DNA from: the human T2T-CHM13v2.0 reference genome, Homo sapiens | Reading direction: 5' to 3' (one strand) | Assembly: GCF_009914755.1 (NCBI RefSeq) | Contig: NC_060929.1 | Length of the DNA stretch: 64,000 nt | In this document: positions 8,561 through 64,000 of the stretch, in pieces | Numbering within the stretch: position 1 is the stretch's first letter | Layout: every line of letters starts with the position of its first letter | The notes under the pieces: generated by a model | Seen by the model: the letters and a program-made list of their open reading frames with translations, nothing else | The model's database searches: none | Told to the model about the DNA's origin: nothing | Position numbers and translations under genes: made by a program

Positions 8561-11358
8561 GAGAGAGAGAATACTATAAACACCTCTATGCAAATAAACT
8601 AGAAAATCTGGAAGAAATGGATAAATTCCTCGACACATAAACTCTCCCAAGACTAAACCAGGAAGAAGCTGAATCTCTGAATAGACCAATAACAGGCTCT
8701 GAAATTGAGGCAGTAATTAATAGCTTACCAAACAAAAAAAGTCCAGGACCAGATGGATTCACAGCCGAATTCCACCAGAGGTACAAGGAGGAGCTGGTAC
8801 CATTCCTTCTGAAACTATTCCAATCAATAGAAAAAGAGGGAATCCTCCCTAACTCATTTTATGAGACCAGAATCATCCTGATACCAAAGCCGGGCAGAGA
8901 CACAACAAAAAAAGAGAATTTTAGACCAATATCCCTGATGAACATCGATGCAAAAATCCTCAATAAAATACTGGCAAATCAAATCCAGTAGCACATCAAA
9001 AAGCTTATCCACCATGATCAAGTGGGCTTCATCCCTAGGATGCAAGGCTGGTTCAACATATGAAAATCAATAAATGTAATCCAGCATATAAACAGAACCA
9101 ATGACAAAAACAATATGATTATCTCAACAGATGCAGAAAAGGCCTTTGACAAAATTCAACAACCCTTCATGCTAAAAACTCTCAATAAATTAGGTATTGA
9201 TGGGACATATCTCAAAATAATAAGAGCTATCTATGACAAACCCACAGCTAATATCATACTGAATGGGCAAAAACTGGAAGCATTCCCTTTGAAAACTGGC
9301 ACAAGACAGGGATGCCCTCTCTCACCACTCCTATTCAACATAGTGTTGGAAGTTCTGGCCAGGGCAATCAGGCAGGAGAAGGAAATAAAGGGTATTCATT
9401 TAGGAAAAGAGGAAGTGAAATTGTCCCTGTTTGCAGGTGACATGATTGTATATCTAGAAAACCCCATTGTCTCAGCCCAAAATCTCCTTAAGCTGATAAG
9501 CAACTTCAGCAAAGTCTCAGGATACAAAATCAATGTACAAAAATCACAAGCATTCTTATACACCAATAACACACAAACAGAGAGCCAAACAATGAGTGAA
9601 CTCCCATTCACAATTGCTTCAAAGAGAATAAAATACCTAGGAATCCAACTTACAAGGGACATGAAGGACCTCTTCAAGGAGAACTACTAACCACTGCTCA
9701 ATGAAATAAAAGAGGATACAAACAAACGGAAGAACATTCCATGCTCATGGGTAGGAAGAACCAATATCATGAAAATGGCCATACTGCCCAAGGTAATTTA
9801 TAGATTCAATGCCATCCCCATCAAGCTACCAATGACTTTCTTCACAGAATTGGAAAAAACTACTTTCAAGTTCATATGGAACCAAAAAAGAGCCCACATT
9901 GCAGAGTCAATCCTAAGCCAAAAAAACAAAGCTGGAGCATCATGCTACCTCACTTCTAACTATACTACAAGGCTACAGTAACCAAAACAGCATGGTACTG
10001 GTACCAAAACAGAGATATAGACCAATGGAACCGAACAGAGCCCTCAGAAATAATGCCGCATATCTACAACGACCTGATCTTTGACAAACCTGACAAAAAC
10101 AAGAAATGGGGAAACGATTCCCTATTTAATAAATGGTGCTGGGAAAACTGGCTAGCCATATGTAGAAAGCTGAAACTGGATCCCTTCCTTACACCTTATA
10201 CAAAAATTAATTCAAGATGGATTAAAGACTTACATGTTAGACCTGAAACCATAAAAACCCTAGAAGAAAACCTAGGCAATACCATTCAGGACATAGACAT
10301 GGGCAAGGACTTCATGTCTAAAACACCAAAAGCAATGGCAACAAAAGCCAAAATTGACAAATGGGATCTAATTAAACTAAAGAGCTTCTGCACAGCAAAA
10401 GAAACTACCATCAGAGTGAACAGGCAACCTACAGAATGGGAGAAAATTTTTGCAATCTATTCATCTGACAAAGGGCTAATATCCAGAATCTACAATGAAC
10501 TCAAATTTACAAGAAAAAAAACCCATCAAAAAGTGGGCGAAGGATATGAACAGACACTTCTCAAAAGAAGATATTTACACAGCCAAAAGACACATGAAAA
10601 ATGCTCATCATCACTGGCATCAGAGAAATGCAAATCAAAACCACAATGAGATACCATCTCACACCAGTTAGAATGGTGATCATTAAAAAGTCAGGAAACA
10701 ACAGGTGCTGGAGAGGATGTGGAGAAATAGGAACACTTTTACACTGTTGGTGGAACTGTAAACTAGTTCAACCATTGTGGAAGTCAGTGTGGTGATTACT
10801 CAGGGATCTGGAACTAGAAATACCATTTGACCCAGCCATCCCATTACTGGGTATATACCCAAAGGATTATAAATCATACTGCTATAAAGACACATGCACA
10901 CGTATGTTTACTGTGGCACTACTCACAATAGCAAAGACTTGGAATCAACCCAAATGTCCAACAATGATGGACTGGATTAAGAAAATGTGGCACATATATG
11001 CCATGGAATACTATGCAGCCATAAAAAAGGATGAGTTCATGTCCTTTGTAGGGACATGGATGAAGCTGGAAACCATCATTCTCAGCAAACTATCGCAAGG
11101 ACAAAAAACCAAACACCGTATGTTCTCACTCATAGGTGGGAACTGAACAATGAGAACACATGGTCACAGGAAGGGGAACATCACACACTGGGGCTGTTGT
11201 GGTGGGGGGGAGCGGGGAGGGATAGCATTAGGAGATATACCTAATGTTAAATGACGAGTTAATGGGTGCAGCACACCAACATGGCACATGTATACATATG
11301 TAACTAACCTGCATGTTGTGCACATGTACCCTAAAACTTAAAGTATAATAAAAAAAAA
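8561..11358 (+). mobile_element. 5'-truncated L1PA (L1PA4-like), 'copy A'
   Basis: ORF2 RT and C-terminal fragments (9115-9690 with FAGD instead of FADD; 10053-10649), L1PA 3'UTR and A tail. Multiple stops. Confidence 0.95.
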
Positions 11359-13608
11359 CAGCTCTGTACAATATTAAAAAAAAAAGTACAAAGGATGTTC
11401 CTGAGATGAAGGTGCATGTGGGGGCTGCAGCTCCCCACTGCCTTTCTTGCTTTCTCACAAAGGCATCCTCCAAGTTCAATGGTCTTGGCAGCCTGCATAA
11501 AATGAGATGTCCCTCATGTCAGAAGAGTCCAGATTCGAGCCCTCACTGCCCTTTACAGTCCTTCCTGTGTGAGCACCAGAAAGAGCTTACACTACCAAAG
11601 AAAGCAAGAACTCTGCTCTTCAGTAAGCCACATTACATAGGTCTAATATGCAAATCCTAGGCCTTAAAAAGTCTTGTGCCAGTATCTTGGGCAATCTTTC
11701 TTTAAAAACTAGTTGTACAGTTTTGGAGTTTACAGTTCATGTTTACTCTGGGTCTTTGAGGAAGCAGGCCTGGCCAGGGTCTAACACAACTGGCGTTTTA
11801 TGTCAGTATGAAACGAAGAACCTTTCAATAAACAGCACTGAGGCAATTGTTATTAAATTGGTTAGGAACACTTTCAGATTTAAGTAAGAGAAAAGACAAC
11901 TCAAATTGGTTTAAACAATAAGGAAAAGTAAATGTATAGAAAGACGTCTGGAAGGATATACACCTAGCTGAGAATTGTGGTTACTTGCAGAAGCTGGAGT
12001 AGGGGATGGGGATCAGGGCAGCCAAAGGGCGGCCACTTTATTTAACTTTACAGTTTTACAATCTTAAGACTAAATAACTTTCTTTTTTATTTAAAAAAAA
12101 AAAGGATTTTCTCTTTTTAAGATTTGACAAAAGAGTGTATTCATGCATCATTGGGGTGCTTAAAAAACAAAACTAATTTTTACAGGATCATTAGAAGTCA
12201 GACAAGCAAAGGCCAAAGGAGGCTGCTCCCTCTGCAGGAGGCCCTGCTGACCACCGGTGACCTAGCTCCAGACGTCTCTGCTCTCCTGTATATCTCTGCC
12301 TAGGCCTCCCTGCCATACTGGTGGGCCTTCCTGGCTCCTGAGGGTGGGAGAATGGGTCTCTCACCTGCACCACAGCTAAACGCTCACAATTATGGGACAG
12401 GAAGCAGGTACAAGGTACTAGAGAGCCACAGGGCTAGATGATAAGGGTTCCTCTGTTGAAATAAGTTCAAAGACAGAAAATAAGGAAGGTCAAGCATTCA
12501 GAGTCTGTATGCCTATCCCCCTGCACTCCCCTCTTCTCTCAGCCATACCCCAACTTCCTGAGGCTCTCTGCCCAGACTTTGAGAGACTGTCCCTTAGCTC
12601 ACCTTGGGTCTGGGGCACTGGCTAGAACAAGGGTAGGACTAGAGGAAGAATAATGATCTGGGATAGTATCAGGGTCAGAAAAAGGGGTGTGCAGAAGTCA
12701 AAACAGAATAGGAGCTGGGAAAGGGCCAGGGGTCTGCATCAGGAGCAGAGGTTCTGTTCACATCCATAGGTAGTAGTGGCAGATGAAACCACTACCTCCC
12801 TTTTTCTCTAGCATAGAGCAAAATGTCTTTTACCCACAGGGAGAGCTACCTTAAATCCCATTTCATTTAGCCAAGTCAGAGAGGAAAAAGCCTGCCCACC
12901 AGGCCAGGGCAAAGTAACTCACTCTTTCCACTGGAGAAGTTCTAATGGAACTCAAGGCAGAGGGCAGAGCCCTCCCAAGGCATGGTCCAGAGGCCTGGGC
13001 CAAGATGGCTAGACGTGCTGCTGCTACATCTGCAGGAAATGGAATTCTGGGGGTGGTGTGGTTAAGAAAAAACCCTCTGGTTTTGATAGATCCACTTGTA
13101 AGTTTACCAAGAAAATTCAGACCAAAGCATCACCCTCACCTTCCTCCACCCACTCTGCAATGACTTCAGAGAAGAGTTATGAGAACTAAAGTGCTCCATC
13201 CCAAGAAAAAGAAGGACTTCCTTTGAGGTTAAGGTGTAAAATAACAAATACTACTGCACCTAAGAAGGCCTTTCCAATGCGAGACTTCCCACTCCTACCT
13301 TCAGAGACTCAGCAGGAACTGGGGAATAGGTGAGAACATAATTAGGGTCTTAAAAGGAATAGATAAGAAAAACTTTCTTTGCATCCTTTTATAGCTGAAT
13401 GACCTTTCATTAAATGAGATAGCTTCAAAAATGGGTTTGTTTTCTTATTTATGCCAGGCCCAAGGGGGCACAATTTGAAAGTGAGGGACTTCTTTGCAAA
13501 ATAATGTAAGGTACTCGCTTTATTATGGGTAGAGAAAATTTTGGAGCAATTAGGAAAATGCTTTTCCTCCTTCTTGTAAATTTAGAATATCCAGTCTGTA
13601 AGAATTAA

Positions 13609-63600: not shown

Positions 63601-64000
63601 TTATGCAGCCAAAAAACATATGAAAAAATGCTCACCATCACTGGCCATCAGAGAAATGCAAATCAAAACCACAATGAGATACCATCTCACACCAGTTAGA
63701 ATGGCGATCATTAAAAAGTCAGGAAACAACAGGTGCTGGAGAGAATGTGGAGAAATAGGAACACTTTTACACTGTTGGTGGAACTGTAAACTAGTTCAAC
63801 CATTGTGGAAGTCAGTGTGGTGATTCCTCAGGGATCTAGAACTAGAAATACCATTTGACCCAGCCATCCCATTACTGGGTATATACCCAAAGGACTATAA
63901 ATCATGCTGCTATAAAGACACATGCACATGTATGTTTATTGCGCCATTATTCACAATAGCAAAGACTTGGAACCAAGCCAAATGTCCAACAATGATAGAC
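60639..64000 (+). mobile_element. 5'-truncated young L1PA (L1PA2-4-like), 'copy E', runs off the window
   Basis: Starts inside the endonuclease-coding region (ATAATGGTAAAGGGATCAATTC) and is close to the L1HS-type ORF2. Confidence 0.96.
61142..63823 (+). CDS. Truncated LINE-1 ORF2p (893 aa; Z domain, RT with FADD, C-terminal CCHC), not a functional full-length ORF2
   Basis: Taken from the ORF track. The upstream endonuclease part is truncated, with TAA at about 60663 and a 1-bp deletion near 61130. Premature TGA at 63821-63823. Confidence 0.85.

What the first reader, a model, noticed from the sequence alone, without database searches (positions are those of the whole stretch)
8561..64000. 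Mosaic sharing of private variants among five neighbouring L1s: signature of local interlocus gene conversion
Seen: copies A-E (B and D with distinct TSDs; different subfamilies) share variants in incompatible patterns. A+E: GAGACCAGAATC (8863; 61877) vs GAGGCCAGCATC in B, C, D. A+B: AAGAAATGGGGAAACGATTCC (10101; 23442) vs AAGCAATGGGGAA(A)GG in C, D, E. B+C: ATGGACAAAGACTTCATGATT (23640; ~26363-26383 minus), TAAATGGAAAAC, TTGAGAGAC (IKSLRDK) and KGPNL. B+C+E: GIHG (22537; ~27465; 62207) vs GIDG in A, D. B+E: ARAIGQ. B+D: QVNIKIQ (20190; 57819), DAKTLNK and TNSFS. C+D: KATVSK and GEIGTK. Most are non-CpG changes. Inference: no single tree explains A+B, B+C, B+D and B+E together, so short conversion tracts between cis-neighbouring L1s, in both orientations, are the simplest reading. 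The density looks high, but I have no baseline.
Basis: partly seen in the sequence, partly recalled or inferred. Interest (0 to 1): 0.75.

Follow-up and report, generated by a model that had tools for sequence, protein, structure and literature searches.

The report
Neighbouring L1 repeats swapped short patches
Three old LINE-1 repeats lying close together on human chromosome 5 share three to four times more rare mutations than unrelated copies do, likely because short patches were copied between neighbours by gene conversion, a process already shown for Alu repeats.

Summary
Its tree argument fails: 293 of 300 unlinked L1 quintets show 9 or 10 of the 10 possible sharing patterns. Against 58 unlinked copies, however, the three old copies share excess rare alleles: B-C 15 vs 3.4 expected, B-D 11 vs 2.9, C-D 10 vs 3.5. 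Three B+C haplotypes occur only in B and C genome-wide. Two B+D doubles occur in 4 places each, and the A+E double in 9 against 9872. A+B, B+E and most A+E sharing is ordinary polymorphism or subfamily state. B and D keep their own target-site duplications. Best reading: short non-allelic gene conversion tracts, about 50-150 bp, in both directions, firm for the inverted pair B-C and weaker for B-D, C-D and A-E. The mechanism is known (Alu, LTR, single L1 cases). The reach of 28-53 kb and a hint of the same effect elsewhere are the new leads. No ape orthologues were available.

The parts
8566..11357 (+). L1 copy A, 5'-truncated, young group (L1PA4-like; name recalled)
18341..24703 (+). L1 copy B, full length, middle group (L1PA7/8-like; name recalled), own 13-bp target-site duplication
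25300..31722 (-). L1 copy C, near full length, oldest group (L1PA10/11-like; name recalled), tail to tail with B, about 0.6 kb gap; no clear target-site duplication
   Evidence: 13 of 14 old-group diagnostic states
52968..59669 (-). L1 copy D, full length, middle group, own 13-bp target-site duplication, Alu inserted at about 54878-55195
60636..64000 (+). L1 copy E, 5'-truncated, youngest group (L1PA3-like; name recalled); ends about 400 bp past the window
20480..20535 (+). B-C candidate tract (partner 29485-29540 -), IKSLRDK double; 7 differences in 56 columns
20938..21078 (+). B-C candidate tract (partner 28939-29079 -); holds a site shared by B, C and D and an old-group diagnostic state in B
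22528..22628 (+). B-C identical run of 101 bp (partner 27382-27482 -); C carries the middle-group diagnostic state here
22755..22808 (+). B-C identical run of 54 bp with two shared rare alleles (partner 27206-27259 -)
23541..23673 (+). B-C tract (partner 26351-26484 -): haplotype found only in B and C; 4 differences in 133
24088..24211 (+). B-C tract (partner 25816-25939 -): three-site haplotype found only in B and C; its last site is also in D; 7 differences in 124
20176..20244 (+). B-D identical run of 69 bp with QVNIKIQ double (partner 57789-57857 -)
23048..23112 (+). B-D candidate tract (partner 54572-54636 -), double in 4 places genome-wide
28455..28489 (-). C-D candidate tract (partner 56457-56491 -), weak
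8794..8906 (+). A-E identical run of 113 bp (partner 61808-61920 +) holding the double variant found in 9 places genome-wide

Best explanation
The old L1 copies B, C and D share three to four times more rare alleles than unlinked copies, most clearly the inverted pair B and C, likely because short patches were copied from one neighbour to another by non-allelic gene conversion after insertion. Shown: the excess, its clustering in patches of about 50-150 bp, three haplotypes confined to B and C, and intact target-site duplications on B and D. Inferred: a break or stalled fork in one copy was repaired from a nearby 90-95% identical copy without crossover. Transfer likely ran both ways (C to B in two patches, B to C in one). 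It likely happened at several times, since patches now differ by 0 of 101, 4 of 133 and 7 of 124 bases. About 8% of B's rare alleles (roughly 12 excess of 128) would trace to exchange with C. One A-E patch likely has the same origin. No function is implied.
For: Class-matched, mutation-spectrum-aware null, alleles at 5% or less: B-C 15 vs 3.4 (0 of 198 unlinked pairs as extreme), B-D 11 vs 2.9 (1 of 555), C-D 10 vs 3.5 (1 of 198); the excess holds at thresholds 0 and 2.5%. Shared sites inspected in clean alignment, apart from two beside gaps. Clustering: B-C 6 and C-D 3 neighbouring shared pairs within 100 bp, 0 of 137 null pairs as many. B-C longest identical run 101 bp, 0 of 151 null pairs as long; B-C distance residual z = -3.5, 1 of 592 more negative. 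Genome-wide exact counts 2, 2, 2 for B+C haplotypes, against 604 and 3398 for the two whose common form was counted; 4 and 4 for B+D (common form 771 for one); 9 vs 9872 for A+E. Of 14 old-vs-middle diagnostic sites, B equals C at 3 of 3 inside candidate tracts and 0 of 11 outside (partly circular). The spectrum of the 33 shared sites (14 weak-to-strong, 13 strong-to-weak, 6 neutral) matches ordinary private mutations (151/133/91), not chance sharing between unlinked copies (100/211/28); 8 of 15 B-C sites are transversions vs 0.235 in the null. In a strip left out of the main count B-C share 3 rare alleles; 2 of 136 null pairs reach 3.
Against: No orthologue or population data, so no allele was seen being replaced. 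Haplotype patterns were chosen because the pair shares them; only the null-pair scans correct for that. The panel is 58 copies picked as best hits to B and C, has few young or oldest copies, and does not cover the 5' UTR or most of ORF1. B-D is at the mean on raw patterns; its 87-bp run is matched by 14 of 348 null pairs and its residual is z = -1.8; C-D's run is matched by 18 of 151 and z = -0.7. The best single tract scores for B-D and C-D are reached by 2-7% of null pairs. Two sites are shared by all three copies and count in each pair; one is an allele found in 292 places genome-wide. An unlinked pair, L043/L024, shares 17 rare alleles, so shared ancestry can mimic the signal. No GC bias is seen (14:13 vs 151:133). 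The A-E run of 113 bp is not long for its divergence.
Confidence: 0.8

Rival explanations
1. B, C and D descend from related minor source elements, so the shared alleles were inherited at insertion.
For: The unlinked pair L043/L024 shares 17 rare alleles. B and D are in the same age group. One three-way allele occurs in 292 places. L042 shares one base and a 1-bp deletion with B and C near 20510-20535.
Against: C carries 13 of 14 old-group states, B 2 and D 0. Sharing is mostly pairwise (B-C 13, B-D 9, C-D 8 exclusive, 2 three-way), not nested. The haplotypes have 0, 0, 0, 2 and 2 carriers outside the window. Relatives landing 0.6 kb apart would need its own explanation.
Confidence: 0.08
2. 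Recurrent mutation at hot sites, raised by a shared regional mutation spectrum, plus picking of striking cases after the fact.
For: It explains A+B (197 places), B+E and GIHG. Unlinked quintets show nearly all sharing patterns. B-D and C-D are modest on several measures.
Against: The null already scales by each copy's number and class of rare alleles and by an empirical hot-site factor. The shared spectrum is unlike that of chance sharing, and the sites cluster. A and E, in the same region, show no excess with B, C or D.
Confidence: 0.08
3. Assembly or polishing error moved alleles between the neighbouring repeats in this reference.
For: Only one assembly was examined.
Against: Several patches differ internally (4 of 133, 7 of 124, 7 of 56), unlike mis-placed reads. 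The copies are only about 89-90% identical with unique flanks.
Confidence: 0.02
4. Two successive inversions (crossovers) between the inverted copies exchanged segments reciprocally.
For: B-C and B-D are inverted repeats; inversion between opposite L1PA7 copies with conversion at the edges is described (PMC5829575, passages).
Against: B and D keep matching target-site duplications. A reciprocal swap exchanges alleles rather than making both copies carry them. No long switch of diagnostic states is seen.
Confidence: 0.02

Closest known systems
Homogenisation of neighbouring Alus by non-allelic gene conversion (Aleshin and Zhi 2010; not held; seen only through PMC6598467 and PMC8230782)
   Same: Neighbouring repeat copies share non-diagnostic mutations above background, most strongly at short range.
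   Different: Here the repeat is L1, and signals reach 28-53 kb, beyond the roughly 10 kb quoted for Alu in both reviews. This is one locus, not a genome survey.
Conversion between L1PA3 copies and at L1PA7-flanked inversions in NA12878 (PMC5829575, passages)
   Same: L1-to-L1 conversion between nearby copies.
   Different: Those are recent, large events seen in reads between very similar copies; here the patches are short, apparently old, and lie between copies now about 10% apart.
Non-allelic conversion in human gene duplicates (bioRxiv 10.1101/135152, passages)
   Same: Mean tract 250 bp (interval 63-1000) fits the patch sizes; the rate falls as copies diverge.
   Different: That study found a large GC bias; none is seen in 27 informative sites here.
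Mosaic conversion among LTR elements on the human Y (as reviewed in PMC6598467)
   Same: Clusters of derived alleles matching a paralogous donor.
   Different: Shown there with population polymorphism, which was not available here.

Membership tests
Non-allelic gene conversion between neighbouring repeats | Neighbours share non-diagnostic alleles above unlinked pairs | tested here: met
   for B-C, B-D, C-D; not met for the six young-old pairs
Non-allelic gene conversion between neighbouring repeats | Shared alleles cluster in short tracts | tested here: met
   B-C and C-D 0 of 137 null pairs, B-D 9 of 337; 101-bp run
Non-allelic gene conversion between neighbouring repeats | Independent insertions with flanks not exchanged | tested here: met
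   B and D keep their own target-site duplications; self-matches between the copies stay within the L1s; C has no clear duplication
Non-allelic gene conversion between neighbouring repeats | Mosaic of subfamily-diagnostic states | tested here: met
   B equals C at 3 of 3 sites inside tracts, 0 of 11 outside; partly circular
Non-allelic gene conversion between neighbouring repeats | Replacement seen against orthologues or as polymorphism | not testable with these tools
   no relative genomes are held for this window
Non-allelic gene conversion between neighbouring repeats | Rate falls with distance | tested here: inconclusive
   the closest pair B-C is strongest, but only three comparable pairs exist
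Non-allelic gene conversion between neighbouring repeats | GC bias of transferred alleles (common, not required) | tested here: inconclusive
   14:13 shared vs 151:133 unshared; small numbers
Shared minor L1 source lineage | Unlinked copies carry the same haplotypes | tested here: not met
   0, 0, 0, 2, 2 outside carriers
Segmental duplication | Homology extends into flanks | tested here: not met
   self-comparison; distinct target-site duplications

The most novel reading that the evidence does not exclude
Old L1 copies across the human genome exchange short patches with neighbours tens of kilobases away, even at 5-10% divergence, so a few per cent of a clustered copy's 'private' mutations come from its neighbours. 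The reach would exceed that reported for Alu and would bias L1 dating and neutral-rate estimates in L1-dense regions.
Probability: 0.3. Interest if true: 0.6.

Novelty: new member of a known kind. Interest (0 to 1): 0.38.

Why it matters
L1 remnants are treated as independent neutral clocks. This locus shows that clustered copies need not be independent, and gives a cheap test (where rare alleles fall relative to each other) that can be run genome-wide. The mechanism itself is established, and nothing here points to a function or to an effect on the IL3/CSF2-P4HA2 region.

Tried and rejected
Tree incompatibility as evidence: rejected. A+B as a tract: 65 identical bases, score reached by 26% of 755 null pairs, allele recurrent; unproven. 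One search returned 0 because I mis-spaced the pattern; it is void and one search replaces it. An unlinked panel for the 5' UTR and most of ORF1, and more young copies, could not be obtained, so KGPNL, GEIGTK and a proper A-E baseline stay open. Generality test with five rare-transversion patterns at conserved sites where all five window copies carry the common base, close pairs (60 kb or less) read by eye from the listings: 0 among 100 of 122, 6 same-allele pairs among 100 of 112, plus one acrocentric pair repeated on three chromosomes that I dropped, 0 among 54 of 54, 0 among 100 of 236, one trio among 100 of 203; 0 different-allele pairs. That is 7 clusters against 2.1-3.5 expected (P 0.006-0.06; allele splits approximate). 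Six of the seven come from one pattern and local duplications are not excluded, so it is only a hint. The list shows 1 non-focal close pair and that shows 3, near background. Literature searches listed no systematic study of neighbouring L1s, but the library lacks most subscription papers and Aleshin and Zhi 2010 was not held., 66 gave no subfamily ages.
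Full report
Observation. The window holds five sizeable primate L1 copies, A-E, at the coordinates in 'parts'. B and C lie tail to tail about 0.6 kb apart, so their homologous sites are 2-9 kb apart in the tracts found. 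B-D are inverted, about 31-38 kb apart; C-D direct, about 28 kb; A-E direct, 53 kb.

Baseline. I took 58 unlinked L1 copies from the same genome, the best hits to the 3' parts of B and C, and aligned them with the window copies. The tree is a ladder: C among the oldest, B and D in the middle group, A and E young. Subfamily names (L1PA10/11-, PA7/8-, PA4-, PA3-like) are recalled from 3' UTR appearance and come from no call. The panel covers B positions of about 2100-6360 only; the 5' UTR and most of ORF1 have 0-2 copies.

Incompatible sharing patterns are normal: 293 of 300 unlinked quintets of the same age structure show 9 or 10 of 10 patterns. On raw patterns only B+C is in excess (0.3% of quintets reach it); C+D is marginal and B+D average. 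Of 81 A+E sites, 54 are carried by 10 or more panel copies. The A+B 21-mer occurs 197 times against 3942 for the common form. B+E is one site at background rate.

What survives. Counting alleles at 5% or less in the panel, away from gaps and CpG columns, with expectation scaled by each copy's rare alleles, mutation class and an empirical hot-site factor: B-C 15 vs 3.4, B-D 11 vs 2.9, C-D 10 vs 3.5; as extreme in 0 of 198, 1 of 555 and 1 of 198 class-matched unlinked pairs (a simpler version on 980 pairs agrees). The six young-old pairs share 0-2. Two sites are common to B, C and D and enter all three counts. The sites sit in clean alignment apart from two beside gaps. They cluster: 6 neighbouring pairs within 100 bp for B-C and 3 for C-D, reached by 0 of 137 null pairs; B-D's 2 are reached by 9 of 337. 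B and C have a 101-bp identical run (0 of 151 null pairs) and are closer than additivity predicts (z = -3.5); B-D (87 bp, 14 of 348; z = -1.8) and C-D (72 bp, 18 of 151; z = -0.7) are not remarkable on these measures.

Genome-wide exact counts. Three B+C haplotypes occur only in B and C; the common forms counted for two of them occur 604 and 3398 times. Two B+D doubles occur in 4 places each, against 771 for the one common form counted. The A+E double occurs in 9 places against 9872, inside the longest A=E run. A has 22 close doublets of uncommon alleles, so chance sharing is roughly 22 x 7/9872 = 0.016. These patterns were chosen after seeing the sharing; they test for hidden lineages, while the null-pair scans test for chance.

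Direction and timing (inferred). Of 14 sites separating oldest from middle copies, defined on unlinked copies only, B has the old state at 2 and C the middle state at 1. All three lie in candidate tracts, and B differs from C at all 11 outside. This suggests C to B twice and B to C once; it is partly circular because a mismatch would break a tract. Tracts now differ by 0 of 101, 0 of 54, 4 of 133, 7 of 124 and 7 of 56 bases, suggesting events at several times; the identical runs were selected for being identical, so they bias towards recent dates. The 33 distinct shared sites have the spectrum of ordinary private mutations, not of chance sharing, and show no GC bias.

Mechanism. The best reading is repair of a lesion in one copy from a nearby similar copy, without crossover, leaving patches of about 50-150 bp. 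Matching target-site duplications on B and D argue against a net inversion. Rivals: a shared minor source lineage (real for the unlinked pair L043/L024, 17 alleles, but the haplotypes have at most two outside carriers and C belongs to an older group); recurrent mutation (explains A+B, B+E and GIHG but not B-C); assembly error (patches are not clean copies); double inversion (swaps rather than shares).

Is it general? Five rare-allele patterns not derived from the window's variants gave 7 same-allele clusters within 60 kb and no different-allele pair, against 2.1-3.5 and 1.2-2.0 expected (454 of 727 matches were listed and read by eye; one acrocentric pair repeated on three chromosomes was dropped). 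Six clusters come from one pattern and local duplications were not excluded, so this is a hint only.

Known work. PMC6598467 (parts 1-2 of 4 read, plus passages) and PMC8230782 (passages) report conversion among neighbouring Alus within about 10 kb, citing Aleshin and Zhi 2010, which was not held. PMC5829575 (passages) reports conversion between L1PA3 copies and at an L1PA7-flanked inversion. bioRxiv 10.1101/135152 (passages) gives a mean tract of 250 bp and slowing with divergence; its supplements, which treat distance, were not seen. PMC8199441 (passages) gave no usable ages. Searches (listings only) showed no systematic study of neighbouring L1s; the library is incomplete, so absence from print is not shown.

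Verdict. Real but narrower than claimed: firm for B-C, probable for B-D, C-D and one A-E patch, unsupported for the rest. A new instance of a known process, with range and generality as open leads. Interest 0.38.

Noticed in passing
L043 (G000:C23:153.10 Mb) and L024 (G000:C4:84.81 Mb): Two unlinked copies share 17 rare alleles and similar 3' UTR changes, apparently a minor source lineage.
   Followed up: partly
G000:C3:158.2-162.2 Mb: Seven carriers of one rare L1 ORF2 allele (about 75 listed genome-wide) fall within 4 Mb, two of them 17 kb apart: possible regional spread.
   Followed up: no
G000:C2:213830556-213852974: Three same-strand L1 pieces within 22 kb carry the same rare allele: conversion or tandem duplication.
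   Followed up: no
G000:C4:11.54/11.56 Mb, C5:121.56/121.60 Mb, C8:15.82/15.84 Mb, C1:119.51/119.54 Mb, C7:64.670/64.671 Mb: Further close same-allele L1 pairs, candidates for the same test.
   Followed up: no
window 8247-8565: An Alu with a long A tail directly precedes the truncated 5' end of copy A.
   Followed up: no
window 54878-55195: An Alu inserted into ORF2 of copy D, flanked by a short direct repeat.
   Followed up: partly
window 47056-47889 (-), 37252-37665 (+), 41100-42414 (+), 47928-48716 (+): Two short L1PA-like 3' fragments (F, G) and two older L1 pieces (70-77% identical to A-E). F shares 0-1 rare alleles with each of A-E and G none.
   Followed up: partly
window 33962-34311 and 38595-38932: Inverted 350-bp match at 75% identity, not among the L1 matches above; probably two copies of another repeat.
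   Followed up: no
window about 22245-22256: Copy B carries a private 8-bp insertion in ORF2.
   Followed up: no
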